This document shows, in pieces, positions 250-62,254 of a stretch of 64,000 nucleotides of DNA (positions are counted from its first letter, which is position 1; each line of letters opens with the position of its first letter). The position numbers and the translations under genes were made by a program. The stretch comes from Anaerolineales bacterium. GTDB lineage: Bacteria > Chloroflexota > Anaerolineae > JAAEKA01. The notes below the pieces were generated by a model. It searched no databases. It saw only the letters and a program-made list of their open reading frames with translations, and was not told where the DNA came from. The stretch spans positions 100,230-164,229 of the forward strand of contig JACKBI010000015.1 of NCBI GenBank assembly GCA_020634615.1. The letters are read 5' to 3'.

Positions 250-257
250 GAACGGGG

Positions 258-17767: not shown

Positions 17768-17931
17768 ATGTTCTCTCCAAAGTACCGGTTTGGGAACAGT
17801 CTGATCTGGTGCGCGCGGCGACCCTGCCGCCATCGCCGCAATTATAGCATACTGGCGAAAAACATGGGAAGAGAACCACGATGTGGAAGTTCGACTTTGC
17901 GGAACAAGTCGAACTTCGCACAGATCCCGAT

Positions 17932-18425: not shown

Positions 18426-18432
18426 GGTAACC

Positions 18433-25318: not shown

Positions 25319-25721
25319 CACAGGTTGGAGGTGGCGTCTTTCAGGGTGCACTATGAGTGATGAAACGAAGCGCCATGGCGGGGGATTTGAGAAACAATGA
25401 TGGGCGTCGTCGTTGTTACAGGTCGAAAATCTCTGGCACGTGCTCGTCTTCGTACTTTTCGATCAACACGCCAAGCACCTCCATCAACGACGCCAGCGGA
25501 TGTGCTTCGTTCTCGCCTACTTCGTCGATCAGGTTGTCAAGAAGAAAAACGGCCTCTTTATACTCTTGTTCAGTGTGCGGTACCATATGCGGCAGATTAT
25601 AACACAGCCCCAGACGCGCACCAACTCGTTTTGTTGGCCCTTGCCGCTATGGTACAATCGTCGCGGGCCACGCGTGGCCTGCGAGCTTCTTCGATCCGGT
25701 ATCCCACCGAGGTACATCTTT

Positions 25722-45811: not shown

Positions 45812-47297
45812 TTACGCCTTGATCAAGGAAACATACGTGCCCTGCACAGTTGAATAGAATGAGACAGTTGTCCAACCAGGCGACCAGATGCGCTGGTCGA
45901 TCCTGGGGCCAATCTTGCCATCCGGGCTAATCTGGTGCATGTGCATACGTCCATTACCATTTTTCAACAAGAACAGGTAGTTCTGCCCGCCGATTGCGTA
46001 GGTCTTCGCAGTTGTCCACCCCGAGGACCAGTCGCGATTGTCAATGACCGGTCCAATCTTTCCGTCGGCGTTGATCTCGTTGACGTGCATCCGCCCATCA
46101 CCCGCTTTCAGCAGGAATAGGTAGTTCTTTCCTCCAATCGCGAATGTGCTCGCGGATGTCCAACCTGAAGACCAATCCTGGTTGTCAATCATCGTTCCAA
46201 TCGTACCATCGGCATTGATTTCATTGACGTGCATCCGCCCGTCACCCGCTTTCAGCAGAAACAGGTAATTCTTGCCCCAGATCGTGTAGATCGCCGCTGA
46301 TGTCCAGCCCGATGACCAGTCCTTGTTGTCGATGAGTGCCCCGATCGTGCCATCGGCATTGATTTCATTGACGTGCATCCGCCCGTTTCCCTCTTTCAAC
46401 AGAAACAGGTAATTCTTGCCCCAGATCGTGTAGATCGCCGCTGACGTCCAGCCCGATGACCAGTCCTTGTTGTCAACGATGTCCCCAAAGCTTCCGTCAG
46501 CATTGATCTCGCGAACAATCATCCACCCATCTCCCTTCTTCAGAAAGAACAGATAGGTCTTCGAGCCGATGGTAAACGGGGCACTTGTCGTCCACCCATC
46601 CGACCACGATCGCATGTCTACCGTGTGATTCACCTCGCCGTGCGGGAACAACTTGTAGACGTGCGAGTTTCCGGCAGTTAGCTCCGCGGCTGTGGCTTGA
46701 TCGCCCGGACTAAACGGACCTGGTGACAGCGAACACAACAGATCGACATACCCGCTGGGTGGAGCAATAAACACATCCTTGGTTGGATCAACTGCAAAGG
46801 CGCGCCGGCAGTAGTGCATCATGGATAGATAATCATAGTTGCCAACATTGACGCTGGCGGCGTCACTCATCTTGATGAAATTTGCAGCCTTCACAGGGTC
46901 AACGTTGTCAAAATCAATCGTTACCCAATCATCCCTGTCACTGCGCATATGTTCATGAATCATCCCCACGGCATGACCAATCTCGTGTTCAATCCTGCAA
47001 CTGATGTTTGGGTTCGGGTTCTCGGGAACCAGGACGATCTGAATGCCGCCAGCCATTCCAGCCGCAGTCGAAAAACAGAAATCCAGCGCGGCCCCGCCAA
47101 ATGATTGAAATGAGATGTAGTTGGTCTGATTGGCACGGGGGATCAATGTGATGCCGACCGCCAGATCGTTCCATGCTGCAATGGCAGTGTTGACACGACT
47201 GACCGTGGTAGGAAAGACACTCTCGTCAATGTCAATTTGATATGGCACACATCCATCCGGCCAGTACGTTTTCTTGTCGCTCGTGATGATTCCCATG
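45812..47297 (-). CDS. Astacin (M12A) zinc metalloprotease with six C-terminal ~45-aa tandem repeats
   Basis: HEIGHAVGMIHEHMRSDRDD and the Met-turn SMMHY. The protein begins directly with a mature-astacin-like N terminus (…WPDGCVPYQID…) and has no signal peptide or prodomain. It lies in a low-GC segment. Confidence 0.8.
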
Positions 47298-47513
47298 GTA
47301 TTGTCTCCTTGTATCGTACGTGCGAAAACAGGTTGATGTGTCGGTTTCTCGTCACCAACATGGTCCGAGCATATCACAAGGCGCGCTTCACCAGCGCTTC
47401 ATGAGAGATTTCACAGGAAACGGTTTACCAACCAGCCGACAGAGGCGTCAGCTTGCTTTGGCCCCCCGCAGTCTGACGTCACAGAGAAAACAGGCGGAAA
47501 CTTCCAGGAAGGA

Positions 47514-50500
47514 TCATGAGTTGAAAGAGGCGTCCAACTGAGCTAGCAGCGGCTCGAGCCGCGCGTCAAGACCGTCAAGATCAACCGGCTCAACCGGGAT
47601 CAGTTCCGAAACATCGGGCAGCGGCGGTGGATCGGGCAGCGTTTCCCCGATCAATTGCTGGTACCGTTGGCGCTGCTCATGAAGCCCGGTCTGTAGGTAG
47701 AGCGACCGATAGAGCTCGGCCGCGGCAGCGAGTGCTGTCTGGTTGTCTGGAGCCAACCGCCACAGTTCATAATGGAGTGCAGCTTGTTGCACGCGCGTCG
47801 GCCTCCGCCGCAACATGGCTTGCAACTCTGCGACCGTGTCTTCATCAGTCAACTCACCCAGCGCGTGGTGCAGCCGAATACCCATGACCTGGAGGTCGAA
47901 GCGCGCGTCCGAGCCTGCCAGATACTGTCCAGCCACCCTGGAGGCCATCTCCACTGCCTCATTGTGGCAAGACAGCGCCTCGGCAGGACAATCCTGCTCT
48001 AACATAAGCCGCGCCAGATCAATGAGCATGCCGCACAGATAGCTGGGAACATCCATCTGCCGTCCAAAATCGATCGCTCTTCGAATCAAGGCCGTGGCAT
48101 GCTCTGGCCGTCGCAGCCCTTCGAGAATAGCACCGATGTTGGCGATGTCGAGACAAGCCGACCACCGATCGCCGATAGCCAGCGAGTTACGCAAAGCCCA
48201 CTCGTAGCCTCCCAGTGCCAGCAGATGATCGCCGTGTCTTGTGAGGATATTAGCGATGAGGTCAACCGCCCAAGATAACGCTTGACGATCATCTATCTGA
48301 CGGGCCAGTAGGCCGGCGCGCAGATACCAGTGCACGGCATCTCCTGTTTTGTGCTGCGACATGCAGACATTTCCCAACGTGAGTGTCGCGCGCGTGACGA
48401 CGAGGTGGTAGCCCAACGGCTCGGCGACCGCGATCGACCTCCGGCAGCAGTCCGCGGACGCGTCCCAATCCCCCTGGCTCCAGTAGACCATGCCCATGGT
48501 ATTCAGCGCCTCGCAGATGCCACGCTGGTCGCCGAACTCGCCGGCGATGCGTAGCTGCCGCTCCAGTGTGGCCAGCGCCTGCTTGTTGTCACCCTTGAAC
48601 CAGTAGATCTCGGCCATAGTCCACAGAGCGCTGACTACACCGCGCCACTCGCCGGTGGACTCGAAACCAAGCTCAGCCTTTGCCAGCCACTCCAACGCCG
48701 TATCGTAGTGGCCCTGCAAGCGCATCACATTGGCCAGGGCACGCTGGGCCTGCGCCTGCAAGGCGACCTTGCCAAGGGTTTCGGCGGCTTCCAGAGCTTG
48801 TCGGTTGATGGCCTCTGCCTCATGCCACTGTCCGTTCACGCGCCAGACCTCACCCAGGGCCAGCATCAGTGCGCAAGTTTCGCTGGCAGACAAGCTTTTC
48901 CTCAGCTTGCCCTCCAACAGATGTTGATAGAGACGAATGGCCTCGGCGTTGGCGTAGATGCGCTGGGCGACCGCTGCTGCCCGGCGGTAATAAGCAATGG
49001 CCGCCCGAGGTCGCCCGGCCTGCTCAAGATGGCCGGCGATCTGACTACTGACGCTGTCCAGATCTGTGGCATGATGCGTTTCCAGCGCCTGGGCTACAGA
49101 TAAATGAATGGCGCGCCGGCGAATCGGACTGACGTCGGCGTGTGCCACAGCTCGGATCTTGTCATGGCTGAAGTCGTATGCGTTCAATCCCTGCTCGCGG
49201 ACGAGGTGCTTGCGCCACAACTCATCCAGGCTTTGCACGACGACTGTTTCATCCTGGCTGCAAGCACTGGCCAACACATCGAAGCTGAACTCCCGGCCGA
49301 TCACCGCCGCCGTTTGCACCAGCGCCTGAGCATCCGGCGACACCATTGACAAACGCCGCCGGATCACCGCCCGAATCTTGGGAGGGAGGGCGGACAGGTC
49401 AGTCAATTCACTTTCCCACTGCCTTCCTGTCTCCCCATCTCCCAGTTCCGCGCGCACTGTCTCTACCACGAACAACGGGTTGCCCTCCGTGTCGTGGAAA
49501 AGCTGCTCGGATTTCGCCGATGTCAGCTCGCGCCCCCCTAGATCCGCGGCCAAACTCGCAGTCTCGGCCATGGTCAGCGGCGACAAACGTAGCTCGCGCA
49601 AGATCGCTCGTTGCTCCAGCATCAGTCGAAAAGCGGCCAATGGGTGATCCTTGCCAACTTCCTCGATCCGCACCGTGCCAAGCACGAGCAGGGGCACGCT
49701 ACCAGCGGCCTGCAACAGATACTGTAGCCAGTCCAGCGTTTTCTGATCGCACCACTGCACATCGTCCAGAAACAGCAGAAGGGGTTGAGCGCTTCCGGCG
49801 CGCTCCTGTCCGGGCAAGCTTGTACCGGTGAGCAGACCATCGCGCCCTGGCGAACGCTCATCGAAATCGATCATGGGCGTTCTCAGCACGACCTGCGCCA
49901 AAGCCTGGAAAAACCGCTGGCGCTGCCATGACTCGGTCATCGGCCCCGGCGCGGGCAGTTCCGGGCGGTCAGATAGCAGATCGGGCAGCAACCTGGCAAC
50001 CTCGCGAATCCAGACATCATCTAGTGCGCGTGTTCTCGCTCGAAGGGCGGCGCTGCGCAACCACTCAGCTACCGGCGCGTATGCCACCAAGGAGTCGCCG
50101 GTGGCATAACAGCGCGCTACTGCCGTCTCCACATCCTGCCGTTCCGCCCAGGCCAGTAGTTCCTCAGCCAGTCGCGTCTTGCCCATGCCTGCTTCGCCCG
50201 ATATCAGCACGAGCTGCGCCCGGCCCGCTTCCGCTGCACGCCAACTATCCAATAGCACTTTCCATTCCGTCTGGCGGCCAACAAAAATGGCACCCGTCGC
50301 GGTTTGCGGGTAGGACGCAGGCCCTGGTAAATCGGCGTTCCTCATCAGAACCTGTTGGTATACAGCCTGTGTTGTTGACCCCGGGTCAACACCCAATTCG
50401 TGGCGCAAGATCGTGGCGCACGTGTGATAAACGCGCAGAGCGTTAGCCCGGTCTCCCAGAGCCAGATGCAGTTGCATCAACTGGCGGTAGACGGCCTCAT

Positions 50501-51089
50501 GTAGCGGGTCAGCCCGTACCAGCCGTTGCGCGTATCCTAGCGCTTCCTTGTAGCTGTGTTTCTCCTTCAATAACACCGACAGTCGTTCGAGGACTTCCAG
50601 ATATGTCTGGCGCAGCCGTTCGCGCTCAGGCACCAGCCACTCGTCATACCATCCGGCCAACAGATCGCCGCCATAGATATCAGCGGCCGCCTTCAGCGCA
50701 GCCAATTCCTCTGCCGAATCGGCGCGTTCCTGCGCAGCTGCGGCTTGCGCGCAGGCATCTTCGAAGTCAACAATGTCGAGCGTGTTTGGTGCATCGTGCC
50801 GCCACTGCAGAGTATGCGGACTAACGTCGAGAAATCGGTCGGCGTCAGGCAGGGATTGACGCATCCGCGCTAGCAGCGTGCGCAGATTCTTGAGAGCTTG
50901 TTTATCGGGGGTGTCGGGCCAGAAGGCGAAGGCGATCTGCTGTCGCGAGCAAGGCACGCGCCGATGCAGCAGCAAGTAGACCAACAACTGCTGCACGCGC
51001 GCCTGATCGAATCCGACCAGCCTTTCATGGCCGGCCGTGATGCGAAAACCACCCAACAAGTTCACTTCCAAGGACGAAGTGTCCACCAA
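47514..51089 (-). CDS. SARP/AfsR-family regulator: OmpR-type winged helix and BTAD, STAND (NB-ARC) ATPase, TPR repeats
   Basis: BTAD N terminus; Walker A GEAGMGKTRL; C-terminal TPR arrays. 1191 aa. Confidence 0.8.
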   Translation of the reverse strand: MVDTSSLEVNLLGGFRITAGHERLVGFDQARVQQLLVYLLLHRRVPCSRQQIAFAFWPDTPDKQALKNLRTLLARMRQSLPDADRFLDVSPHTLQWRHDAPNTLDIVDFEDACAQAAAAQERADSAEELAALKAAADIYGGDLLAGWYDEWLVPERERLRQTYLEVLERLSVLLKEKHSYKEALGYAQRLVRADPLHEAVYRQLMQLHLALGDRANALRVYHTCATILRHELGVDPGSTTQAVYQQVLMRNADLPGPASYPQTATGAIFVGRQTEWKVLLDSWRAAEAGRAQLVLISGEAGMGKTRLAEELLAWAERQDVETAVARCYATGDSLVAYAPVAEWLRSAALRARTRALDDVWIREVARLLPDLLSDRPELPAPGPMTESWQRQRFFQALAQVVLRTPMIDFDERSPGRDGLLTGTSLPGQERAGSAQPLLLFLDDVQWCDQKTLDWLQYLLQAAGSVPLLVLGTVRIEEVGKDHPLAAFRLMLEQRAILRELRLSPLTMAETASLAADLGGRELTSAKSEQLFHDTEGNPLFVVETVRAELGDGETGRQWESELTDLSALPPKIRAVIRRRLSMVSPDAQALVQTAAVIGREFSFDVLASACSQDETVVVQSLDELWRKHLVREQGLNAYDFSHDKIRAVAHADVSPIRRRAIHLSVAQALETHHATDLDSVSSQIAGHLEQAGRPRAAIAYYRRAAAVAQRIYANAEAIRLYQHLLEGKLRKSLSASETCALMLALGEVWRVNGQWHEAEAINRQALEAAETLGKVALQAQAQRALANVMRLQGHYDTALEWLAKAELGFESTGEWRGVVSALWTMAEIYWFKGDNKQALATLERQLRIAGEFGDQRGICEALNTMGMVYWSQGDWDASADCCRRSIAVAEPLGYHLVVTRATLTLGNVCMSQHKTGDAVHWYLRAGLLARQIDDRQALSWAVDLIANILTRHGDHLLALGGYEWALRNSLAIGDRWSACLDIANIGAILEGLRRPEHATALIRRAIDFGRQMDVPSYLCGMLIDLARLMLEQDCPAEALSCHNEAVEMASRVAGQYLAGSDARFDLQVMGIRLHHALGELTDEDTVAELQAMLRRRPTRVQQAALHYELWRLAPDNQTALAAAAELYRSLYLQTGLHEQRQRYQQLIGETLPDPPPLPDVSELIPVEPVDLDGLDARLEPLLAQLDASFNS

Positions 51090-51194: not shown

Positions 51195-52382
51195 CTAGCG
51201 CAGAACCAACGCCCGCTGCGGATCGCCCAAATACTCTGCGCCGTCCCCGGTCACCAGCACATCCTCCTCCAGCCCGACGTAGCCGTAGCCGGGCACGGCC
51301 AGCCCTGGCTCGACCGTGTAGACGTGCCCCGCTTCCAGCGGGCGGAAGGGCGTTTGACCGTAGCGTTCCCAGGCCGGTCCCAGCACGCCGCCGCCATCAT
51401 GCACGTTGCGGCCCATGTGGTGACCGGTCGCATAGGGATACGCCGGATAGCCCGCGTCGACGATGACCTGGCGCGCGGCTGCGTCGATTTCGACACCGGT
51501 CGCGCCGGGCCGCATGGCCGCCACCGCCGCATCCACCGCCCGCAGGACGGTATCGAAACCGCGCTGCACCGGCTCGGGGGCCGCCGTTTCGCCGGGACGC
51601 AACATGTAGACCACCCGCTGAATGTCGGAACAGTAGTCATCCTGCTCCACGCCAAAATCGAAGTGGACAATGTGCCCCGGTTCGACGCGAAGATCGGTCG
51701 GGCCGGCGTGGCCGCCCGACGAGTCCGGTCCCGAGTTGACCAGCGGGCAACCCTCGCGATCCCACGCAGGTTGCAGGCCGCGCGCGTCCAGTTGGTCGTG
51801 CATGAACCGGGCGATCTCCCGCTCGGTCAACCCAGGACGCAGCGTCTCAACCGTTGCGTCGTAGATCTGACGCGTCGTCTCGATGGCCGCACGGATACGC
51901 TCGACCTCAGCCGCGGTCTTGCGGCCACGCAGCGCGCCGATGATCGCCTCCGCCGAAACCAGCCGGCCGGCAAAGCGCGTTTCCTCAAGATACCCGGCCA
52001 GCACCTGATACAAGCCATGCCCCAGCCCGTCGGCAAAGACATCGTTGGCCGAATAATTGATGGCCAGTTGTTTGGGATCGAACCGCTCAAGCGCAGCAAG
52101 CAAATCTGGTCGCACTGACTGATCGTAGGCGATAACGTCGGCGAAGAGACCGGTTCGTTCCGCTGTGACAGCATCGCCGCGGCCAACAATTGCGACGCGC
52201 CCGCCGGAGCGCGTGAGAAGCAGCGCACTCTGCCAGGTCAGGCCATGCTCGCCGTAGATCAACGGCAGCACCGGGTCGCCGCCGGCTGATGTCTCGCGCA
52301 CAAAGGTCAGCCACGCGTCCACTTCCATCTCCTGAAGAATATCGATGGCCTGAAGCACTTTCTCGCGATTGATTTCTGACAT
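51195..52382 (-). CDS. M24 family metallopeptidase (Xaa-Pro aminopeptidase/creatinase fold)
   Basis: Pita-bread fold metal ligands (…HFDFGV…). Confidence 0.8.
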   Translation of the reverse strand: MSEINREKVLQAIDILQEMEVDAWLTFVRETSAGGDPVLPLIYGEHGLTWQSALLLTRSGGRVAIVGRGDAVTAERTGLFADVIAYDQSVRPDLLAALERFDPKQLAINYSANDVFADGLGHGLYQVLAGYLEETRFAGRLVSAEAIIGALRGRKTAAEVERIRAAIETTRQIYDATVETLRPGLTEREIARFMHDQLDARGLQPAWDREGCPLVNSGPDSSGGHAGPTDLRVEPGHIVHFDFGVEQDDYCSDIQRVVYMLRPGETAAPEPVQRGFDTVLRAVDAAVAAMRPGATGVEIDAAARQVIVDAGYPAYPYATGHHMGRNVHDGGGVLGPAWERYGQTPFRPLEAGHVYTVEPGLAVPGYGYVGLEEDVLVTGDGAEYLGDPQRALVLR

Positions 52383-52622
52383 ACCGTACCTCTTTCTCAT
52401 GTAGTTGGGGATATTGCAACACCGGCATTGTCAGCGACCGGTAACGCTTTGTCAAAAGACCGCGCCGGCGCGATACGCAGGAATCCAGCTCGCGCGAGCG
52501 CGAACCGGCAAAAATTCGCGGTTGAACTGCGGACACTTCGGGTGTATACTGAAGTGTGCAATAGATCACAGTTCTGTCCTTTTTCTGAACTCACCGCCGC
52601 GAACCTCAACGAAGAGGCCACC

Positions 52623-55600
52623 ATGAATCGGCGTGACGAACTCATAGACGCAATTGCTCTGCTCGAAGCCCAACGCGCCACCCTCGGCGACACGGCTGTC
52701 GACGCGTCGATTGCTGCCATGCGCCAGGCGCTCTCGGCGCACGACCAGGCTGCCCGCGCCGAACAGCGCAAGACAGCCACGGTCATCTTCGCGGACATCG
52801 TGAACTTTGTCGAGCTGACAGCCCAACGCGATCCTGAGGACGTCCGCGAGCTACAGCGAGCCTTCTTCACCACGGTCACCGCACCCATTCTGGAGTTCGG
52901 CGGGGTCATTGAGAAATACATCGGCGATGCAGTCATGGCCGTGTTCGGCGTGCCAGAGGTGCACGAGGACGACGCGGAGCGGGCGGTGCGCGCGGCCCTG
53001 GCCATGCAAGCCGGGCTGGCAGCCCTGAACGTGGCGCTGGCGCACACTCATGCGCTGCAGCTCGCCATGCGCATCGGGATTCATACCGGCACCGTGGTCG
53101 CCACCAGCGAGACGCACAGCGGCTCGTTCATGGTCAGCGGCGATACGGTTTCGCTGGCGTTTCACCTGCAGGAAGTGGCAGAACCGAATTCGGTGCTGGC
53201 CAGCGAAGCGACCCAGCGTCTGATTTCCCATGTCTGCGAGATGGAACCGCTGGGCAGGTTGACGCTGCGCCGGCGCAGCGAGTCGACCATGACCTACCGG
53301 GTCCTGCGTTTGCGGCCAGACACGGGCAAGCTGCGCGGTGTTGCCGGAATGGATTCGCCTCTGGTGGGACGGCAGCCCGAGTTCGCAGCTTTGTGCGCGG
53401 CCGTTGACCGGCTGCATGAGGGCAGAGGAGGTCTCGTGACTCTGGTAGGGGAAGCGGGCATCGGCAAGTCGCGTCTGATGGCTGAGGTCCGCAAGACACT
53501 TGAGAAACAACCGCTTGCTCTGCCGTCGTCCGCTGCTATTCGCTGGATCGAGGGGCGTTGCCTTTCGTACGACGGCAAAGTTGCCTATCACCTTTGGCAG
53601 GACCTGCTGCGCGAGACATTGGGCGCATCGATGGAAGACTCGGCGGAAATGGTCGCATCCTCGCTGGAGCGGTTCGTCCGCGTGATCTGTCCGTACAATC
53701 AGGAAAGCACCGTGGCCTTCCTGGCGCGCCTCATGGCACTGCCGCTGCCGGCTGATTGGGAAGAACGGCTGGACAAAATGGGCGCCCAGGATCTCCAGTA
53801 TCATACCTTCGGCGCCGTGAAAAACGTCCTCAGTCGCGCTGTGCAAAACTGGCCTATCGTCCTGGTCTGCGAAGATCTGCACTGGGGAGATCCCAGCTCG
53901 CTGGCGCTGCTGGCGCAACTCGTGCCGCTGGTCGAACGGACACCGCTGCTGTTGGTCTGCATCTTCCGGCCAGAACCCGACCAGAACCATCCGGTCTGGC
54001 AGATCGCAGCACATGGAGACCGCCTGTCAGCCGGGCAACACCTGAGTCTGCATCTGCAACCGCTGACGGCAGATGACAGCGAGATTCTCCTGACCAACCT
54101 CCTGGGGATGCCGTTGCCCTCCCGGCTGGTCTTGCGCATTCTCAGCCAATCCGAAGGCAACCCGTTCTACGTCGAGGAGATCATCCGCTCGCTGATCGCC
54201 CACGGAGCACTGGTACAAGACCCGGCAAACGGCCAGTGGCAACTGGTGGATGACCTGGCAAATATCGCGATCCCCGAGACATTGCAGAACGTGCTGGCGG
54301 CGCGCATTGACCGCCTGGACTACAATGAGCGCCACGTCTTGCAGATGGCAGCAGTGATCGGGCGAATCTTTCCACTGCGCGTGCTGGCAGCCGTATCCAG
54401 CGACGTCCTCAATCTGGAGGAGTGCCTGCGTTCCCTCGTGCAGCAAGAATTGATTCGGCAGCGCTCTGGCGCACAGGAACTGGAATACATCTTCAAGCAC
54501 GCGCTAACGCAAGAGGCAGCATACAACGGAACATTGAAGCGCCAGCGGCAGGTGTTCCACCGACAGACGGCCGAGGCGCTGGAGCGCCTTTTCGCCGAGC
54601 GTGTCGAAGAACTGTTAAGCATCCTGGCCCACCACTGGGAGCATTCTGACAACCCGCAGCGCGCGGTGGAGTATCTGCTGCGGGTGGGCGACCGCGCGCG
54701 CCTGGCCTATGCTAACCAGGAAGCCGCCGATTCCTACGAGCGCGCGTTGTCGCTGTTGCAGCAGCAAGGCAACGATGAAGGCAGCGCGCGAATCTTGATG
54801 CGTCTGGGACTGGTGCATGTAGCTGCTTTTGATTATCAGCAGGCCAGCAAGGCATACGAGCGCAGCTTCGTGCTCTGGAATCGCCGGTCCCCTTCGCCCG
54901 AAGGAGTCGCGCCGTTACCACTTGCTTCGCAGACGCACCGCCGCATGTGGGGAATAGAGCCCAAGAACTGGGACCCAAACCCGACCTTCGACTACGAAAT
55001 GCCGCTCTTTTCCGGCCTGCTGGAAGAAAGCCCAGACCTTTCGGCCGTTCCCGACATTGCCCGCAGTTGGGAAATGCTCGACGGTGGACGCGCCTACATC
55101 TTTCATCTGCGCGACGACGTGCGATGGAGCGACGGTTTTCCCGTCACCGCGGACGATTTTGAATTCGCCTGGAAGCGGCTGCTGGACCCGGCTGTGCCGC
55201 CGATGAATGCCCGCCGGCGCGCGCTGGACACCTCCACAGGTCTGCGCTCAGCCGGCCCGCTGTACGATGTGTGCGGCGCGCACGCGTATCACACCGGCCA
55301 GTCTGGTAATCCCGATAGCGTCGGCGTCCACGCCACCGATCCGCTGACACTGGTGGTCGAATTGGAGCGACCGGTGGCCTACTGGCTGCACATCATGGCC
55401 AACCCGGCGACGTTCCCCGTCCCCAGACATCGCGTCGAGCAGTACGGCGACGACTGGTGCGAGGCTGACAGGATTGTCACCAACGGGCCCTATCTGCTGG
55501 ATCGCTGGCATCCGCGAGAGCAGGTCGATCTGGTGCGCAACCCACACTACCACGGCCGTTTCAGCGGCAATGCACACCGGGTCGAGTTGCTCTGCCTGCC

Positions 55601-56480
55601 CTATCCAACTGACTGGCCGGAACGACTGGCGCTATATGAGGCGGGCGAGTTGGATTATCTCTTTATCGGCAACTGGCCCATCCCGGGCGTGGCGGAAGCA
55701 GCCCGCCGGCGCAGCGCAGACCACCGCAGGATGCCTGCCCTGCATACAGCCTCAACTTGCTTCAACGTCCAGCTTCCTCCCTTCGACGACCGGCGCGTGC
55801 GCCAGGCCTTTGCCATGGCGTCCGATATCGCAAGCGGCATGGCCTCCGGGCGAGTGCGCAGTCAGGAAATCGTCACCGGCGGCTTCCTGCCGGCTGCCAT
55901 GCCTGGCTACTCTGCCGGCATTGCCCTCGGCTACGACCCGGAACGAGCCAGGGTGTTACTGGCGGAGGCTGGTTATCCCGGCGGTCGCGGCTTCCCGGAG
56001 GTCACATATTACTTCATCATGACACCAGGCAGCAGTATGATGGAAGAGTCCCTGGTGCCTCAGATGGAAGAAACTCTGGGCGTGAAAATCCACCTTGAGA
56101 TCCTGGAATGGGGCGAATATCACTTGCGTCTCAAAACCAAACCACCCCACATCGGCCTGCATACCTGGTCAGCCAACTACCCGGACCCCGACGATTTCAT
56201 GCGCGTCGCCTATCACGATATCCAGCGCTATTTCGGCTGGCGCGATGAGCAGTATGAGACTCTGGTGGATGAAGCTCGCACGCTGACTGACCAGGCTCAG
56301 CGCATCAAGCTCTATCGACAGGCCGACGCGATCCTGGTGCGCGAGGCCGCCATCGTACCGATCATGCACGCACCGACTTCATGCCTGATCCAACCCTGGG
56401 TAGAGCGACTGGTGATCTCTCCGCTGAGCGCGATGTCGCTCTGGACATCGCTGCGCGACGTGGTGATCCGCCCGCATTGA
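52623..56480 (+). CDS. Multidomain signalling protein: class III adenylate/guanylate cyclase, STAND ATPase, TPR repeats, and a C-terminal family-5 solute-binding-protein (SBP_bac_5, OppA/DppA-like) domain
   Basis: Cyclase homology domain (VIFADIVNFVELT…YIGDAVMAVFG); Walker A GEAGIGKSRL; the C-terminal ~520 aa are collinear with peptide/nickel SBPs (…IARSWEMLDGGRAYIFHLRDDVRWSDGFPVTADDFEFAWKRLLDP…). One continuous ORF with no signal peptide. Confidence 0.75.
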   Translation: MNRRDELIDAIALLEAQRATLGDTAVDASIAAMRQALSAHDQAARAEQRKTATVIFADIVNFVELTAQRDPEDVRELQRAFFTTVTAPILEFGGVIEKYIGDAVMAVFGVPEVHEDDAERAVRAALAMQAGLAALNVALAHTHALQLAMRIGIHTGTVVATSETHSGSFMVSGDTVSLAFHLQEVAEPNSVLASEATQRLISHVCEMEPLGRLTLRRRSESTMTYRVLRLRPDTGKLRGVAGMDSPLVGRQPEFAALCAAVDRLHEGRGGLVTLVGEAGIGKSRLMAEVRKTLEKQPLALPSSAAIRWIEGRCLSYDGKVAYHLWQDLLRETLGASMEDSAEMVASSLERFVRVICPYNQESTVAFLARLMALPLPADWEERLDKMGAQDLQYHTFGAVKNVLSRAVQNWPIVLVCEDLHWGDPSSLALLAQLVPLVERTPLLLVCIFRPEPDQNHPVWQIAAHGDRLSAGQHLSLHLQPLTADDSEILLTNLLGMPLPSRLVLRILSQSEGNPFYVEEIIRSLIAHGALVQDPANGQWQLVDDLANIAIPETLQNVLAARIDRLDYNERHVLQMAAVIGRIFPLRVLAAVSSDVLNLEECLRSLVQQELIRQRSGAQELEYIFKHALTQEAAYNGTLKRQRQVFHRQTAEALERLFAERVEELLSILAHHWEHSDNPQRAVEYLLRVGDRARLAYANQEAADSYERALSLLQQQGNDEGSARILMRLGLVHVAAFDYQQASKAYERSFVLWNRRSPSPEGVAPLPLASQTHRRMWGIEPKNWDPNPTFDYEMPLFSGLLEESPDLSAVPDIARSWEMLDGGRAYIFHLRDDVRWSDGFPVTADDFEFAWKRLLDPAVPPMNARRRALDTSTGLRSAGPLYDVCGAHAYHTGQSGNPDSVGVHATDPLTLVVELERPVAYWLHIMANPATFPVPRHRVEQYGDDWCEADRIVTNGPYLLDRWHPREQVDLVRNPHYHGRFSGNAHRVELLCLPYPTDWPERLALYEAGELDYLFIGNWPIPGVAEAARRRSADHRRMPALHTASTCFNVQLPPFDDRRVRQAFAMASDIASGMASGRVRSQEIVTGGFLPAAMPGYSAGIALGYDPERARVLLAEAGYPGGRGFPEVTYYFIMTPGSSMMEESLVPQMEETLGVKIHLEILEWGEYHLRLKTKPPHIGLHTWSANYPDPDDFMRVAYHDIQRYFGWRDEQYETLVDEARTLTDQAQRIKLYRQADAILVREAAIVPIMHAPTSCLIQPWVERLVISPLSAMSLWTSLRDVVIRPH

Positions 56481-56549: not shown

Positions 56550-57818
56550 ATGACAATGATAAGCGGCGCCAGTCAGTCTGGAGCTCAACCTGAGCCGCGA
56601 AGCCGCAACTACCTGACATTCCTGATCGTGTTCCTGGGATCGATAGCACTGATGGACGGCTATCTCTCCGGGGTCAAAGCGTCGGCCATTCCCTACATTC
56701 TGAAGGCCTATGGCATCGACGCGCCCACGTTTTCGGGGCTGGAGTCGATCGCGCTTATCGTGACGTTCTTCGTTTTTGCCCTCAATCACCTGGCTGACGT
56801 CATTGGCCGCAAGCCGGGTCTGCTGCTGCTGATTCTGGGCATGGGTCTCTCCAGCCTTGCGATATTGATCTGGACACCGACACTGCCACTGTTCATGATC
56901 TTCTACGCTGCGGCGACATTCTTTACCGTCTCGAATATGTGGCAGGTGCCGGCCAGTGAAGAAGCACCGGCCGCACGTCGGGCACGGGTAGTCACCTTGA
57001 CTGCGGCCATCGGTCTCCTGCCGCTGCAAGCCATCCTGCCGCCGATCCTGGTTGCAAGGTTGGGTCTCAACTGGCGCTGGATGTACGGAATCCAGTTTCT
57101 TTTCATGCTTCCAGTGCTGCTGATGTGGCTTTTTATGCGCGAGACCTCCCGCTACCAGGTGGTACAAGAGCAGCGCCGCCAGGACCACGTAAGTCGCAGG
57201 TTCAATCTCGGCCTGGCCACCATGGACCGGCGCGACCTGCGCAACATCATATTTTCGTCGGCAGTCCTGATCTGCATTCTCCTCTTTGTCTCGCTCTTTT
57301 TCTGGTGCGGCTACTTCTTTATCACGCTCAACGGGTTCACACTGACGCGTTGGTCGGCGGTCTTCCTCGCAGTCCTGTTGATGATCATGCTGGGAAATCT
57401 GTCGGGCGGCTGGTTGCTGGACCGCGTGGGCAGGAAACGAGGGTTGATCATCGGCTGCGCAGGATGCTGTATCGCGATTGCCGGTCTGGGATATGCGCCC
57501 GGCACAATCCAGATCGCGATGGTAGCCGCGACAGGGTTCTTCTTTGGTATCAGTTCCTCCTGGACAGCTGTTTACATTTCCGAGGTTTTTCCAACCGATC
57601 GCCGCGCCACCTGCGTGGGTTGGGTGACGGCTGCCAGCCGTATCAGCTACGTGGCGGGACCGGCGTTGGCAGCGCTGCTGCTCAAGGCGTTTCCCGACAT
57701 GACGATTTTCTGGATTGCAACCGGTCTCATCAGCCTGCTGCCGATCGTGATAGTCCTGGTGGCCAGGCCCGCGGAAACCAAGCAGCTTGCCCTGGAAGAG
57801 ATCGCCGCGAGCCATTGA
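56550..57818 (+). CDS. MFS transporter
   Basis: Twelve predicted TM helices; a GRKRG-type loop between TM8 and TM9. Confidence 0.8.
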   Translation: MTMISGASQSGAQPEPRSRNYLTFLIVFLGSIALMDGYLSGVKASAIPYILKAYGIDAPTFSGLESIALIVTFFVFALNHLADVIGRKPGLLLLILGMGLSSLAILIWTPTLPLFMIFYAAATFFTVSNMWQVPASEEAPAARRARVVTLTAAIGLLPLQAILPPILVARLGLNWRWMYGIQFLFMLPVLLMWLFMRETSRYQVVQEQRRQDHVSRRFNLGLATMDRRDLRNIIFSSAVLICILLFVSLFFWCGYFFITLNGFTLTRWSAVFLAVLLMIMLGNLSGGWLLDRVGRKRGLIIGCAGCCIAIAGLGYAPGTIQIAMVAATGFFFGISSSWTAVYISEVFPTDRRATCVGWVTAASRISYVAGPALAALLLKAFPDMTIFWIATGLISLLPIVIVLVARPAETKQLALEEIAASH

Positions 57819-60182: not shown

Positions 60183-61817
60183 TCATTTTGCGTATACCCA
60201 GTCAGCAAACAGCTGGCCAAGATCGCAGCCGCAGTGCTGTTCAGCCAGCGCGCGCAGCCCCTCGGTCGTAGCAACGTCCCAGGAGAAGGCCCGGTAGTAG
60301 TCGCGCAGGAACGCGGCAAACGCCGTCTCGCCCATCTCCTGCGCCAGCGCCTCGAAGAAAAGCGGCCCGCGTCCGTAGACGATAGCGCCGTACGTGCCGG
60401 GATATTCGCCGCCCTCGGAGTACGCCGCCACTGGCAGGCCAATGGGAATCGCATCCTCGCTGACACGCGCCCAGCGACTCTCCAGCGACGCCCGGAACCC
60501 GTCGTAACCTTCCTGACCGTACTGATCCTGGAAGTACAGCAGGGTGATGTACTGGGTCAGCGCCTCGTCCAGCCACGGGTCGTCCAACTGATCGTCGCCC
60601 ACCACGTTGTAGAACCACTGATGGCCCACCTCGTGTGCAACGGTGGCTTCCAGATACTGCTCGTACTGGCCCTGATACATGCGGTTGGTGAGCGCCATGA
60701 TGCCGGGATATTCGACGCCCAACGCGCTGGTGGCCGTGCTGACAAGATCCATCTCGCTGTAGGGATAGGGGCCGATGTGGCCCTCGAAGCTCCGCATTGC
60801 TGCCGCGGCGATCTCGGCCACCGCTTTTGATCCGATTCGAAGGCTGCGCGGCGCGTAGCTGTTGATCGTCGTTTCACCCACCTGCTGGCTGGTCACCTCG
60901 TAAGCATCGCTGGCAGCCAGATAGAAGTCGCGCGCCGGGCCGGCTGCTACGGTCACCACCTGCTTGCCTGCGGCGCTGCTTTCGTCCACAATGACGCCGC
61001 TGGTTACCAGCACCTGCTTGTCGGGTGCGGTGATACGCGCCAGGTAGTAGCTGCTGTCAGCATAGACGACATCGCCTTCGGGCGGAGCAATCTCGACGTT
61101 CCAGCCTTCATCGTCGTAGACCGCGATCATTGGATAGAAGTGCGCCAACGCCAATACATCGTCAAATGAGGCAAAGGTGCCGTAGTTGCTGGTCTCCGGG
61201 TCGGTCGGCACGATCACGTCGAAATCCATCGCGATAACCGCCTGCTGGCCCGGTTGGAGTGGCTCTGCCAGCGGCACGGTCATGACGCTGTCCTCCAGGC
61301 TATAGACAGGCTCGCCCGGCTGCCCGTTGACGGTCAGATTGCTGACAGAAATTGATCCACCGGTAAGGTTGGGGAACAGACGAAACACCACGCTGTCCAG
61401 CGGCACATCCTCCGTATTGGTGTAGCGCACTTCCTCGCGACCGTGCAGCGACGTCATGTCGTCGCCCAGAGTCACATCCAGATGATAGACGCTCGCGCCG
61501 GGCCGCTGCTCCAGCACGGATTGCTGGCCGGTCACCAGACCAGCAGCAAAGGGGCTGCGGTCGTCCCAGGCAATGTCGAAAATCGTCGACGCCGGCTGGT
61601 CGGCGCTGTCCACAGCCGCGGAGGCCGGTTCAGCCGGTTGCGTGGCGGCCGGCTCGACGGCAGTCGTCGGCGCAAGTTGCGGCGTGTCTGTGGCGGCGAG
61701 CGCAGTCGTGGGCTGTGTTGCCGGCGAAACGGTGGCGACAGCAGGGTTAGCGGGCTGCTGGCAAGCCGTCAAAGCCAGCAGGGAAATCAAGGTGAGGATG
61801 AGAATTTTAGTTTTCAT
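60183..61817 (-). CDS. M1-family zinc aminopeptidase-like lipoprotein
   Basis: Lipoprotein signal MKTKILILTLISLLALTAC; HEVGHQWFYNVVG…E zincin motif. Confidence 0.75.
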   Translation of the reverse strand: MKTKILILTLISLLALTACQQPANPAVATVSPATQPTTALAATDTPQLAPTTAVEPAATQPAEPASAAVDSADQPASTIFDIAWDDRSPFAAGLVTGQQSVLEQRPGASVYHLDVTLGDDMTSLHGREEVRYTNTEDVPLDSVVFRLFPNLTGGSISVSNLTVNGQPGEPVYSLEDSVMTVPLAEPLQPGQQAVIAMDFDVIVPTDPETSNYGTFASFDDVLALAHFYPMIAVYDDEGWNVEIAPPEGDVVYADSSYYLARITAPDKQVLVTSGVIVDESSAAGKQVVTVAAGPARDFYLAASDAYEVTSQQVGETTINSYAPRSLRIGSKAVAEIAAAAMRSFEGHIGPYPYSEMDLVSTATSALGVEYPGIMALTNRMYQGQYEQYLEATVAHEVGHQWFYNVVGDDQLDDPWLDEALTQYITLLYFQDQYGQEGYDGFRASLESRWARVSEDAIPIGLPVAAYSEGGEYPGTYGAIVYGRGPLFFEALAQEMGETAFAAFLRDYYRAFSWDVATTEGLRALAEQHCGCDLGQLFADWVYAK

Positions 61818-62254
61818 ATGAGTCTCGTTGGATGACAAAGTTGATGCGGGCCGATTTTCGGCCAGCTTGCTTGTGATAGTTAAGAAAATGAATCGGCAAT
61901 TGTATCGGTACGCCCGCCGGAGGCTACCCACTCCGCTCCGCTACGGGGTGCTGCGCAAAGCCGTCCGGCTACAACATGGAAGCCCTTTCAGGGCTGGAAT
62001 CCAGGCCCGTAGGGCCTTTCACCTCGTAGCCCGATCCGTTTAACGGTCGGGCGGGCTTCGCCAGGCTATTGCCGGAACAAAATCTTAACTTTCATCATTC
62101 GGTGGGGTGGCGGCGCCGTCGTACTGTCGACACCTCTCTTTGCCCGCCGCGGCAACGGCAGCTATAATCACACCCATCACAGATCGGCCGCTCCGACGGT
62201 TCAACGACGGAGTCGCACGCCCCCCACTTTACCAGCGCCAGGCTGTATTGATCT

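What the first reader, a model, noticed from the sequence alone, without database searches (positions are those of the whole stretch)
52623..56480. Cytoplasmic adenylate cyclase-STAND-TPR protein fused to a periplasmic-type solute-binding (SBP_bac_5) domain
The nucleotide cyclase, P-loop STAND ATPase and TPR combination is a known regulator architecture; mycobacterial members end in a LuxR HTH. Here the C-terminal ~520 aa are instead collinear with OppA/DppA-type family-5 ABC substrate-binding proteins, in a protein with no signal peptide. In STAND signalling and immunity proteins the C-terminal module is normally the ligand sensor, so a solute-binding domain in that position suggests direct small-ligand (peptide or metal) sensing coupled to cNMP synthesis. 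I do not know this fusion as a described architecture. A partial Crp/Fnr cNMP-binding regulator lies at the window start.
Basis: partly seen in the sequence, partly recalled or inferred. Interest (0 to 1): 0.78.

Follow-up and report, generated by a model that had tools for sequence, protein, structure and literature searches.

The report
Cytoplasmic OppA-like sensor on STAND cyclase
A real, widely conserved gene in uncultured Chloroflexota joins a nucleotide cyclase and a STAND ATPase switch to an OppA-type binding domain kept inside the cell; this points to a large, unstudied class of intracellular receptors, though in this copy the cyclase and the peptide-anchoring residue are atypical.

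Summary
Window 52623..56480 (+) is one uninterrupted 1285-aa ORF with the order class III cyclase, AAA_16 STAND NTPase, TPR, SBP_bac_5. It has no signal peptide and no TM helix. The fusion is not an artefact: four other MAGs carry 99.6-99.8 % identical full-length copies, and more than 80 protein clusters down to 33 % identity share the architecture, in Chloroflexota, Actinomycetota and Dormibacterota. The NOD-TPR-SBP chassis also occurs with other N-terminal effectors (SARP/BTAD, Ser/Thr kinase, CHAT protease). In a tandem array of paralogues the SBP domain is about 54 % identical while all other domains are 77-90 % identical, as expected of a ligand sensor. Two relatives have a Crp-type cNMP-binding regulator immediately downstream, which supports cNMP output for the family. 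The window protein's own clade differs in four ways. The transition-state Arg of the cyclase is His, or Asn in one member; in the window protein the transition-state Asn is also Ser. The Asp that anchors a peptide's amino terminus in OppA is Asn. The Crp gene is absent. An MFS transporter gene always follows and has been duplicated together with the sensor. I found no paper describing this architecture. I file it as a new variant of a known kind. Ligand, activity and mechanism are inferred, not shown.

The parts
52522..52550 (+). Promoter-like site (TTGAAC, 17 nt spacer, TATACT), 73 nt upstream of the ATG
   Evidence: Consensus scan. This is a weak, consensus-only match.
52623..56480 (+). Whole CDS, 1285 aa: cyclase, STAND NOD, TPR, SBP_bac_5
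   Evidence: Identical to NCBI MCB9133175.1, 'AAA family ATPase [Anaerolineales bacterium]'.
52758..53297 (+). Class III nucleotide cyclase homology domain (aa 46-225). Metal Asp58 and Asp102, Lys98 and Arg150 are present. Transition-state Asn is Ser177 and Arg is His181. The second substrate-specifying position is Met170.
   Evidence: Pfam PF00211, 77.7 bits. Alignment to CyaB 3r5g. Column counts over 120 sequences. The same residues occur in four independent copies.
53358..53957 (+). STAND P-loop NTPase (AAA_16, aa 246-445). Walker A is GEAGIGKS (Lys282) and Walker B is LVCEDLHW (Glu417-Asp418).
53958..54542 (+). Helical and winged-helix part of the NOD ('arm'), aa 446-640, including the conserved EGNPFYVEE motif
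54543..54887 (+). TPR helical repeats, aa 641-755
   Evidence: Pfam TPR_12 at aa 699-748, 24.8 bits, below cutoff. The AF2 model is all-helical over model residues 400-515.
54888..54992 (+). Linker of about 35 aa (aa 756-790) between the TPR and the SBP domain, in the place of a signal peptide or lipobox. No hydrophobic segment.
   Evidence: It is the least conserved segment among the close relatives (60-66 % identity).
54993..56477 (+). OppA/MppA/DppE-like family-5 (cluster C) solute-binding domain, aa 791-1285. The position equivalent to OppA Asp419 is Asn1185.
56550..57818 (+). MFS transporter gene, same strand, about 70 nt downstream. A likely functional partner in this clade.
   Evidence: Pfam MFS_1. 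No terminator-like site in the gap. Adjacent in all 8 loci of the clade at 58 % identity or more. Co-duplicated with the sensor in one genome: 76 % identity for the MFS against 73 % for the sensor. 59 % identical in the 58 % relative.

Best explanation
The gene encodes a soluble cytoplasmic receptor of the STAND class (MalT/AfsR-like AAA_16 NTPase plus winged-helix arm plus TPR). Its C-terminal sensor has been extended by a complete OppA/MppA-type Venus-flytrap binding domain, and its N-terminal effector is a class III nucleotide cyclase domain.

Proposed mechanism, inferred by analogy with MalT, PH0952 and Apaf-1:
- In the resting state the TPR-SBP sensor holds the NTPase closed on ADP.
- A small cytoplasmic ligand, peptide-like in most family members, is captured between the SBP lobes.
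- The resulting change releases autoinhibition, ATP replaces ADP, and the NOD multimerises.
- Multimerisation brings cyclase domains together. Class III cyclases are active only as dimers, so this would switch on cNMP synthesis.
- In the ancestral arrangement a Crp-type regulator encoded immediately downstream reads the cNMP.

The window protein belongs to a derived clade with four distinguishing features:
- The sensor is always followed by an MFS transporter. I suggest it imports the sensed compound, or that its expression is the regulated output.
- The amine-anchoring Asp of OppA is Asn, so the ligand probably lacks a free alpha-amino group.
- The linked Crp gene is gone.
- The cyclase has lost one or both transition-state residues, so its catalytic output is probably weakened or altered. 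The domain is nevertheless as conserved as the rest of the protein.

Shown here: domain composition, cytoplasmic location, conservation of the fusion, effector swapping, sensor-specific divergence, and the gene linkages. Inferred: ligand binding, ATP-dependent multimerisation, cyclase activation, and the role of the MFS.
For: - Domains and residues.
- No TM helix or signal peptide.
- The multidomain model is confident as a whole (pTM 0.84 for 1046 residues).
- The same NOD-TPR-SBP chassis occurs behind cyclase, zinc-ribbon plus cyclase, SARP/BTAD, Ser/Thr kinase, BTAD plus kinase, and CHAT plus cyclase. This is the modular logic of STAND proteins, with a variable effector and a C-terminal sensor.
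- Three tandem paralogues on L005 are 84-90 % identical in the cyclase, 84-86 % in the NOD and 77-80 % in the TPR, but only 53-55 % in the SBP. In contrast, the window protein and its closest relatives (P0002-P0006, 73-77 % overall) keep the SBP at 77-79 %, as high as or higher than the other domains.
- All 150 nearest SBP representatives in a library of 1.84 billion are C-terminal parts of long multidomain proteins or fragments; none looks like an ordinary secreted OppA.
- No ABC permease or ATPase gene was called next to any of the 11 fused-member loci whose called genes I read.
- cNMP output: most family members have the canonical D, D, R, N, R residues. A Crp-family gene overlaps the sensor's stop by 14 nt in L088, and a 57 % identical Crp lies 0.7 kb downstream in L006.
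- MFS linkage.
- STAND autoinhibition and activation model: PMC6468293.
- OppA Asp419 role: PMC5736914.
Against: - No biochemical datum exists for any member.
- In this protein the cyclase lacks the transition-state Asn and Arg (Ser177, His181) and has Met at the second substrate-specifying position. It may therefore make little or no cNMP.
- The Asp to Asn change at the OppA-419 position weakens the case for a peptide ligand here.
- I could not inspect model coordinates or PAE, so contact between the SBP and the NOD or TPR is not demonstrated.
- Part of the MFS adjacency among the syntenic orthologues (L002, L003, L087, L089) is shared synteny. The argument for a functional link rests on one within-genome duplicate and one 58 % relative.
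- Crp-family genes are common in these genomes, and I measured no background rate of adjacency.
- SBP divergence in the tandem array could reflect domain replacement by recombination rather than selection for new ligands. Either would still imply that the SBP is the variable, specificity-giving part.
Confidence: 0.6

Rival explanations
1. Conflict or immunity system. The protein is an NLR-like STAND sensor whose SBP domain recognises an invader-derived or competitor-derived peptide (phage protein fragment, bacteriocin or RiPP). The cyclase makes a second messenger that triggers a defence or suicide effector, as in Pycsar or Avs systems.
For: - The cyclase domain matches PycC models (E 8e-17).
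- One family member carries a CHAT caspase-like protease in front of the cyclase (P0280).
- Tandem arrays have rapidly diverged sensor domains.
- The family is enriched in filamentous or multicellular lineages, which are known for STAND-based conflict systems (PMC7159879).
- A small 'Frankia_peptide'-like gene lies next to P0044.
Against: - The PycC hits are generic class III cyclase homology. No STAND defence family in PADLOC matched.
- No cNMP-activated toxin or effector gene was called adjacent in any locus read.
- The commonest effectors on this chassis are SARP DNA-binding domains and Ser/Thr kinases, which are typical regulators.
- The neighbours where a link is seen are a Crp transcription factor and an MFS transporter.
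- The window context is housekeeping genes with conserved synteny, not an island.
- The window protein and its closest relatives keep the SBP at 77-79 % identity, which argues against an arms race.
Confidence: 0.12
2. Pseudo-cyclase regulator. In this clade the cyclase domain is catalytically dead and serves only as a dimerisation or nucleotide-binding module. The protein acts through protein-protein contacts, for example on the MFS transporter or another partner, rather than through cNMP.
For: - Ser177 and His181 replace the transition-state Asn and Arg. His (Asn in P0004) replaces Arg in the whole clade at 73 % identity or more. Independent copies show the same residues, so they are not sequencing errors.
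- The linked Crp gene seen in L088 and L006 is missing in this clade.
- The domain is still 74-81 % conserved among the close relatives, so it is under constraint for some function.
Against: - Both metal-binding Asp residues, Lys98 and the phosphate-binding Arg150 are retained.
- Established knowledge of class III cyclases is that loss of the Asn or Arg lowers kcat but need not abolish activity, and that non-canonical substrate-pair residues occur in active enzymes such as Rv0386 (from my own knowledge, not tested here).
- His could partly substitute for Arg.
- Crp-family proteins are encoded elsewhere in the genome.
Confidence: 0.2
3. The SBP domain is not a small-ligand sensor. It is a scaffold or chaperone-like module that binds a protein partner or unfolded polypeptide, or simply a structural extension of the TPR sensor.
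For: [quoted passage not shown]
- The amine-anchoring Asp is lost in this clade.
- AF2 places the SBP in a closed-like state within the multidomain model without any ligand.
Against: - The full three-lobed fold is retained with high confidence.
- The Asp is conserved in 102/119 family members.
- The isolated-domain model is closer to open forms and the in-context model is closer to closed forms. This is compatible with a working hinge, though it is weak evidence.
- Paralogue-specific divergence of the SBP is what ligand specificity would predict.
Confidence: 0.06
4. Artefact: two adjacent genes (a cyclase-STAND-TPR regulator and a secreted OppA) joined by an assembly or frameshift error.
For: None found. 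The only hint in this direction is that NCBI names for the same protein vary between 'AAA family ATPase' and 'ABC transporter substrate-binding protein'.
Against: - The frame is uninterrupted.
- Four further full-length copies from other MAGs are 99.6-99.8 % identical.
- 83 of 120 aligned sequences share the fusion down to 33 % identity, in several phyla.
- The SBP part starts exactly where a mature SBP would, and no signal peptide is encoded in any frame-consistent position.
Confidence: 0.01

Closest known systems
MalT / PH0952 / AfsR-type bacterial STAND regulators (AAA_16 NOD plus TPR-like sensor)
   Same: - P-loop NOD with Walker A and B motifs, a winged-helix arm and a C-terminal helical-repeat sensor.
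- A variable effector sits at one end of the protein.
- A BTAD-AAA_16-TPR paralogue lies 1.5 kb upstream in the window.
   Different: - The sensor is extended by a complete family-5 SBP domain. In MalT the inducer, maltotriose, binds the helical sensor itself.
- The effector here is a nucleotide cyclase at the N-terminus, not a LuxR or SARP DNA-binding domain.
Mycobacterial Rv0386 / Rv1358 / Rv2488c-type cyclases (class III cyclase, ATPase, TPR, LuxR HTH)
   Same: - The N-terminal order is cyclase, then AAA_16/NB-ARC-like ATPase, then TPR.
- The substrate-defining residues are non-canonical. A Gln/Asn pair occurs in some family members, which I recall as Rv0386-like.
- This architecture is surveyed in PMC2447327.
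   Different: The C-terminus is an OppA-like SBP domain, not a LuxR helix-turn-helix. The output is therefore not direct DNA binding, and the extra domain is a candidate ligand binder.
OppA / MppA / DppE periplasmic peptide-binding proteins (cluster C, SBP_bac_5)
   Same: - Collinear over about 485 residues, at 23-28 % identity.
- Most family members keep the Asp that binds the peptide's N-terminal amine.
   Different: - No signal peptide or lipobox, so it is cytoplasmic.
- It is covalently attached to a STAND regulator.
- No ABC permease or ATPase genes nearby.
- In the window clade the anchoring Asp is Asn.
PrgZ, and SBPs that feed signalling receptors (DppA-Tap, CBP-ChiS, AibA-TlpB)
   Different: In those systems the SBP is a separate, extracytoplasmic protein that docks onto a membrane transporter or receptor. 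Here the SBP is intracellular and fused to the signalling protein.
Cytoplasmic regulators built on periplasmic-binding-protein folds (LacI/GalR, LysR effector domains, AmiC)
   Same: The principle is the same: a Venus-flytrap binding fold recruited into the cytoplasm as the ligand-sensing module of a regulator. This comparison rests on established knowledge and was not tested here.
   Different: Those regulators use class I or II PBP folds of about 250-350 aa attached to DNA-binding domains. Here the domain is a 500-aa cluster C (OppA-type) SBP that gates a STAND ATPase.
TOMM system kinase/cyclase fusion protein (TIGR03903)
   Same: It is the best NCBIfam match to aa 29-710, covering the cyclase, AAA_16 and helical region (267 bits).
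   Different: The score is far below the 705.75-bit cutoff. There is no kinase domain and no TOMM gene cluster nearby, and the C-terminus differs.

Membership tests
STAND NTPases (MalT/AfsR-like, AAA_16) | P-loop NTPase with Walker A GxxGxGK[ST] and Walker B hhhhD[DE] | tested here: met
   GEAGIGKS (Lys282) and LVCEDLHW (Glu417-Asp418). Lys282 and Asp418 are invariant in 120/120 aligned sequences; position 417 is Glu in 110 and Asp in 10. PF13191 scores 87.5 bits against a cutoff of 32.6.
STAND NTPases (MalT/AfsR-like, AAA_16) | NOD architecture: NBD followed by helical and winged-helix domains, structurally like MalT or Apaf-1 | tested here: met
STAND NTPases (MalT/AfsR-like, AAA_16) | Modular layout: variable effector domain plus C-terminal sensor domain | tested here: met
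   Cyclase, SARP, kinase or CHAT effectors occur on the same NOD-TPR-SBP chassis.
STAND NTPases (MalT/AfsR-like, AAA_16) | Inducer-dependent ADP/ATP exchange and multimerisation | not testable with these tools
   This needs purified protein (SEC-MALS or cryo-EM, with and without ligand and ATP).
Class III nucleotide cyclases | Cyclase homology domain fold and profile | tested here: met
   PF00211 scores 77.7 bits against a cutoff of 21.9. CyaB 3r5g matches at E 2e-18.
Class III nucleotide cyclases | Two metal-binding Asp residues | tested here: met
   Asp58 and Asp102.
Class III nucleotide cyclases | Transition-state-stabilising Asn and Arg | tested here: not met
   Ser177 and His181 in the window protein. 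The same residues occur in four independent copies. The canonical Asn and Arg are present in most other family members.
Class III nucleotide cyclases | Substrate-specifying pair (Lys plus Asp/Thr for ATP; Glu plus Cys for GTP) | tested here: inconclusive
   Lys98 is present but the second position is Met170. The nucleotide specificity cannot be read from this.
Class III nucleotide cyclases | Catalytic cNMP synthesis as a dimer | not testable with these tools
   This needs an enzyme assay.
Family-5 / cluster C ABC substrate-binding proteins (OppA, DppA, MppA) | SBP_bac_5 profile and three-lobed fold | tested here: met
Family-5 / cluster C ABC substrate-binding proteins (OppA, DppA, MppA) | Export signal (signal peptide or lipobox) and extracytoplasmic location | tested here: not met
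   The domain starts at residue 791 or so of a soluble protein. No hydrophobic segment is present.
Family-5 / cluster C ABC substrate-binding proteins (OppA, DppA, MppA) | Works with cognate ABC permease and ATPase, usually encoded nearby | tested here: not met
   None was found within the window's neighbourhood or called in 11 related loci. One ABC_tran ORF at 18295-19257 lies 34 kb away.
Family-5 / cluster C ABC substrate-binding proteins (OppA, DppA, MppA) | Asp anchoring the peptide N-terminal amine (OppA Asp419) | tested here: not met
   Asn1185 in the window protein and in P0002-P0006. Asp in 102/119 family members. The role of the residue is taken from PMC5736914.
Rv0386-type cyclase-ATPase-LuxR regulators | C-terminal LuxR-type HTH | tested here: not met
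   No HTH hit. The C-terminus is SBP_bac_5.
Pycsar (PycC cyclase plus effector) anti-phage system | Cyclase with an adjacent cNMP-activated TM or TIR effector gene | tested here: not met
   Only generic PycC homology of the cyclase domain. The neighbours are an M24 peptidase and an MFS transporter.
TOMM kinase/cyclase fusion (TIGR03903) | Score above the curated cutoff; N-terminal kinase; TOMM cluster context | tested here: not met
   267.2 bits against a cutoff of 705.75. There is no kinase domain.

The most novel reading that the evidence does not exclude
OppA-type binding domains, textbook periplasmic transport components, have been recruited into the cytoplasm as the ligand-recognition module of a large family of STAND switches in Chloroflexota, Actinomycetota and Dormibacterota. 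The family has interchangeable outputs: cNMP cyclase, SARP transcription activator, Ser/Thr kinase and CHAT protease. Tandem arrays of paralogues that differ mainly in the SBP domain would then form a repertoire of intracellular receptors for different peptides or peptide-like metabolites, such as imported signals, RiPPs or cell-wall peptides. In the window's clade the receptor has become a two-gene unit with an MFS transporter that supplies, or is controlled by, the sensed compound.
Probability: 0.45. Interest if true: 0.75.

Novelty: new variant of a known kind. Interest (0 to 1): 0.6.

Why it matters
**Relation to current views.** STAND proteins are the bacterial relatives of NLR and Apaf-1 switches. 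How they recognise their triggers is known for very few of them, such as MalT with maltotriose and some Avs proteins with phage proteins. SBPs are treated in the field as extracytoplasmic (PMC8050422).

**Tractability.** A family in which the STAND sensor is a well-understood, crystallisable, ligand-screenable OppA-type domain would give a workable route to ligands and activation mechanisms for many orphan regulators in poorly studied phyla. At least 150 clusters at 50 % identity belong to it. It includes SARP-type regulators of the kind that control secondary metabolism in actinomycetes.

**Possible use.** It would also provide a natural, modular design in which a binding domain gates a cyclase, kinase or transcription factor. 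That may interest biosensor engineers.

**This particular gene.** Its practical value is lower, because its cyclase and its binding pocket are both atypical.

Tried and rejected
- **Assembly or frameshift artefact:** rejected.
- **Hidden TM helix or signal peptide that would place the SBP outside the cell:** none found.
- **ABC transporter partner genes:** none found near the gene or called in 11 related loci.
- **Known anti-phage system:** PADLOC gave only generic PycC cyclase homology.
- **TOMM kinase/cyclase membership:** the score is far below the cutoff.
- **Nickel or metal sensing:** NikA-type models score far lower than OppA-type models. I did not pursue this further.
- **M24 peptidase as a conserved partner:** it is adjacent in the window, in L087 and in L004, but in different orientations, and it is absent elsewhere. 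I treat it as unproven.
- **Crp fragment at the window start as the partner:** it is 52 kb away and only 38 % identical to the linked Crp of relatives.
- **Literature:** nine full-text searches found no description of the fusion (SBP_bac_5 with adenylate cyclase; STAND with solute-binding and Chloroflexi; STAND with periplasmic binding protein; Rv0386, AAA, TPR; substrate-binding protein with STAND ATPase; PF00496 with PF13191; BTAD with SBP_bac_5; Anaerolineae with cyclase and oligopeptide-binding). The library lacks most subscription journals, and InterPro/CDART could not be queried.
- **Specificity-determining positions for the window clade:** the scan gave only seven positions, none interpretable without coordinates.
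- **dN/dS:** not attempted, because the close relatives are 73-77 % identical in protein and synonymous sites are probably saturated.

Full report
**1. The observation**

Window 52623..56480 (+) is a single open frame of 1285 codons starting at ATG. A sigma-70-like site lies 73 nt upstream.

Pfam finds four domains:

| Domain | Residues | Score | Cutoff |
|---|---|---|---|
| Guanylate_cyc | 46-225 | 77.7 bits | 21.9 |
| AAA_16 | 246-445 | 87.5 bits | 32.6 |
| TPR_12 | 699-748 | 24.8 bits | 30.1 (below cutoff) |
| SBP_bac_5 | 809-1198 | 223 bits | 32.4 |

- NCBIfam aligns aa 778-1262 end to end with OppA-type equivalogs.
- The PDB sequence search aligns about 485 residues with E. coli and Salmonella OppA (E 3e-50), DppE and MppA.
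- The most hydrophobic 19-residue window scores only 1.72 on the Kyte-Doolittle scale. It lies in the NTPase core and contains charged residues.
- The N-terminus is not signal-like, and the 35-residue linker before the SBP part is polar.

**2. The fusion is real**

- The protein is identical to NCBI MCB9133175.1 from an Anaerolineales MAG.
- Its 90 % cluster holds four more full-length 1285-aa sequences from other assemblies. They are 99.6-99.8 % identical and have the same junction.
- I aligned the window protein with the other 119 of the 120 best-scoring clusters. 83 of these 120 sequences carry cyclase, AAA_16 and SBP_bac_5 at full length, down to 33 % identity, on independent contigs from JGI, ENA, NCBI and Logan.
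- A scan of one genome per species found full NOD-TPR-SBP coverage in Caldilineae, Anaerolineales, Chloroflexia, Gaiellaceae and other Actinomycetota, and Dormibacterota.

An assembly or frameshift artefact is excluded.

**3. What the parts are**

*NTPase.* It is a STAND NOD.
- Walker A Lys282 and Walker B Asp418 are invariant in all 120 aligned sequences. Position 417 is Glu in 110 and Asp in 10.
- A 1046-residue AF2 model of aa 240-1285 is confident (pLDDT 87.5, pTM 0.84).

*C-terminal domain.* It is a complete three-lobed cluster C SBP.
- The isolated-domain model has pLDDT 89.6 and matches OppA, MppA and DppE at TM about 0.8.
- With the same program (Foldseek), the isolated-domain model is nearest to unliganded DppE (8azb, TMt 0.86).
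- The SBP inside the multidomain model is nearest to liganded OppA and MppA (TMt 0.88) and far from open MppA (0.65).
- I record this as compatible with a working hinge, and no more than that.

*Cyclase.*
- Aligned to P. aeruginosa CyaB, the window protein keeps both metal Asp residues (58, 102), Lys98 and the phosphate-binding Arg150.
- Ser177 and His181 stand in place of the transition-state Asn and Arg, and Met170 is at the second substrate-specifying position.
- The four independent copies have the same residues, so they are not sequencing errors.
- The closest relatives, P0002-P0006 (73-77 % identity), keep the Asn but have His (Asn in P0004) in place of the Arg.
- Among more distant members the canonical Asn and Arg predominate: 72 and 74 of the 83 fused sequences, and 29 and 36 of the 37 non-fused ones.
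- The cyclase domain is as conserved as the rest of the protein among the close relatives (74-81 %), so it is still under constraint.

*SBP pocket.*
- The Asp that hydrogen-bonds the N-terminal amine of bound peptides is Asp419 in S. enterica OppA (PMC5736914).
- It aligns with Asn1185 here.
- It is Asp in 102 of 119 family members, but Asn in the window protein and in P0002-P0006.

**4. Evidence that the SBP is the sensor of a modular switch**

*(a) Effector swapping.* The same NOD-TPR-SBP chassis occurs behind these effectors:

| Effector in front of NOD-TPR-SBP | Example |
|---|---|
| Cyclase | L011, L012 |
| Double zinc ribbon plus cyclase | L008 |
| Trans_reg_C plus BTAD (SARP) | L014 |
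| Ser/Thr kinase | L017 |
| BTAD plus kinase | P0266, P0275, P0285 |
| CHAT protease plus cyclase | P0280 |

One protein has BTAD, AAA_16 and four SBP domains in a row (P0241, 2843 aa).

I searched 1.84 billion cluster representatives with the SBP part alone. That gave 2798 hits at E <= 1e-30. All of the best 150 are either long proteins with the SBP at the C-terminal end or fragments, and none looks like an ordinary secreted OppA. A local classification of those 150 gave these counts:
- at least 33 with SARP/BTAD alone in front;
- 9 with a kinase;
- 9 with a cyclase: 7 plain, 1 with a zinc ribbon and 1 with CHAT;
- 3 with BTAD plus a kinase.

*(b) Sensor-specific divergence.* On L005 four paralogues lie in tandem. 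The three complete ones compare as follows:

| Domain | Pairwise identity |
|---|---|
| Cyclase | 84-90 % |
| NOD | 84-86 % |
| Arm (winged helix) | 80-88 % |
| TPR | 77-80 % |
| SBP | 53-55 % |

Between the window protein and its closest relatives the pattern is the opposite. The SBP is 77-79 % identical, as high as or higher than the other domains.

*(c) No ABC partner.* No ABC permease or ATPase gene was called next to any of the 11 fused-member loci whose called genes I read. None was found among the ORFs scanned around the gene in the window either.

Together these results fit a specificity-giving sensor domain on a conserved switch. None of them is a direct demonstration of ligand binding.

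**5. Output and partners**

- In L088 (P0007, 58 % identical, canonical cyclase residues, Asp at the OppA-419 position) a Crp-family gene (cNMP_binding plus HTH_Crp_2) overlaps the sensor's stop codon by 14 nt. After two small opposite-strand genes comes an MFS transporter 59 % identical to the window's.
- A Crp 57 % identical to that one lies 0.7 kb downstream of the distant member P0044.
- Crp-like genes also occur within 6 kb of seven non-fused cyclase-STAND genes among the fetched loci. I have no background rate for this.
- All eight loci of the clade at 58 % identity or more have the MFS gene downstream.
- One contig (JACKBH010000009.1) carries two copies. One is the near-identical orthologue, in the same neighbourhood as the window. 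The other is a 73 % paralogue in a different upstream context. The paralogue is also followed by an MFS that is 76 % identical to the window's. The pair was therefore duplicated, or retained, as a unit.
- In the window the gap between the sensor and the MFS is about 70 nt and holds no terminator-like site.
- The MFS resembles aromatic-acid and metabolite:H+ symporters only weakly.

**6. Mechanism proposed**

The steps below follow the MalT/PH0952 model (PMC6468293) and the known obligate dimerisation of class III cyclases, which is established knowledge.
1. The TPR-SBP sensor keeps the NOD closed on ADP.
2. Ligand capture by the SBP releases this autoinhibition.
3. ATP binding drives multimerisation.
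4. Cyclase domains pair and make cNMP.
5. The linked Crp reads the cNMP.

For the window's clade I infer a change of ligand (no free alpha-amine) and a partnership with the MFS transporter. I also infer a weakened or altered cyclase output after loss of the linked Crp. All steps after 'domain composition and linkage' are inference.

**7. Rivals**

- **Defence or conflict system (confidence 0.12).** CHAT effectors, tandem diversification and PycC homology favour it. The absence of any adjacent toxin or effector gene, the regulator-type partners, the housekeeping context and the conservation of the SBP among the close relatives argue against it.
- **Pseudo-cyclase (0.20).** This is plausible for this clade specifically.
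- **Non-ligand scaffold (0.06).**
- **Artefact (0.01).** Already refuted by the results in section 2.

**8. Comparison with what is known, and novelty**

- The protein passes the tests I could run for a STAND NTPase.
- It has a cyclase homology domain but fails the transition-state residue test.
- It has an SBP_bac_5 fold but fails three features of a transport SBP: export, an ABC partner and the anchoring Asp.
- It is not an Rv0386-type LuxR protein, a Pycsar system or a TOMM kinase/cyclase.
- Nine full-text searches found no description of a STAND protein with a family-5 SBP sensor.
- The main review on SBPs in signalling treats them as extracytosolic (PMC8050422).
- Automatic annotation already names both halves, as in JGI's 'ABC-type oligopeptide transport system substrate-binding subunit/class 3 adenylate cyclase'. 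The sequences themselves are therefore not new. What appears unreported is the interpretation and the extent of the family.
- I could not query InterPro or subscription journals.

I rate it a new variant of a known kind, with interest 0.6. The family-level finding is notable and testable. This particular gene is an atypical member, and nothing is shown biochemically.

Noticed in passing
window 47514-51089 (-): A second STAND regulator (BTAD, AAA_16, TPR/TPR_MalT; 1191 aa; no SBP) lies 1.5 kb upstream on the opposite strand, beyond the M24 peptidase gene. The same arrangement is kept in the orthologous locus L087.
   Followed up: partly
window 51195-52400 (-): An M24 metallopeptidase gene (weakly Xaa-Pro aminopeptidase or dipeptidase-like) is divergent from the sensor gene. 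An M24 gene also lies next to the distant member P0017 (L004 10121-11407), but there it is convergent. Astacin (45812-47377) and M1 (60183-61931) peptidase genes are also nearby. This may be a peptide-metabolism theme or chance.
   Followed up: partly
window 1-250 (-): The N-terminal part of a Crp/Fnr-type cNMP-binding protein runs off the window start. It is 38 % identical over 73 aa to the Crp linked to P0007, so it is a different paralogue and is unlinked (52 kb away).
   Followed up: yes
L005 1-13985: Four tandem paralogues (double zinc ribbon, cyclase, AAA_16, TPR, SBP_bac_5; about 1300 aa each) lie head to tail. The SBP domains are about 54 % identical and everything else is 77-90 % identical. 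One paralogue has Glu rather than Asp at the OppA-419 position.
   Followed up: yes
P0241 (2843 aa) and P0262 (2704 aa): These are giant relatives with four consecutive SBP_bac_5 domains. P0241 has BTAD, AAA_16 and four SBP domains.
   Followed up: partly
P0280 (1556 aa): A CHAT caspase-like protease is fused in front of cyclase, AAA_16, TPR and SBP_bac_5. It is the only member seen with a death- or defence-type effector.
   Followed up: no
L088 4569-7554: Between the Crp gene and the MFS gene of the P0007 locus sit two small opposite-strand genes (DUF5615/Mut7-C-like and DUF433). They look like an inserted toxin-antitoxin pair.
   Followed up: no
L014 4735-8997: In this actinomycete SARP-NOD-SBP protein, the stretch between BTAD and AAA_16 looks by eye like a relic cyclase domain that has lost the first metal Asp ('LLLVATGS' where the family has 'LFADIVGS'). 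Pfam did not call it at E <= 0.001.
   Followed up: no
L007 7672-9154: The 72 % relative in a Caldilineae MAG matches in two overlapping tblastn pieces, and its open frame ends at 8616, before the end of the match. This is either a frameshift within the SBP region (pseudogene) or an assembly error in that MAG.
   Followed up: no
L006 9948-10193: A small ORF (81 aa) with a weak 'Frankia_peptide' hit lies between the P0044 sensor gene and its downstream Crp gene. It could be a peptide precursor.
   Followed up: no
window 1133-3879 (-) and L003 3385-6132: Two tandem CNNM/CBS/CorC genes plus a methyltransferase lie 49 kb from the sensor gene in the window. In the orthologous locus L003 they lie directly upstream of it, next to a transposase, which points to a rearrangement between these genomes.
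   Followed up: no
window 25413-28310 (+) and 15257-17833 (-): A LonB/LonC-like AAA protease (965 aa) and an 858-aa protein with a weak HerA/DUF87 hit. Neither is related to the finding.
   Followed up: no
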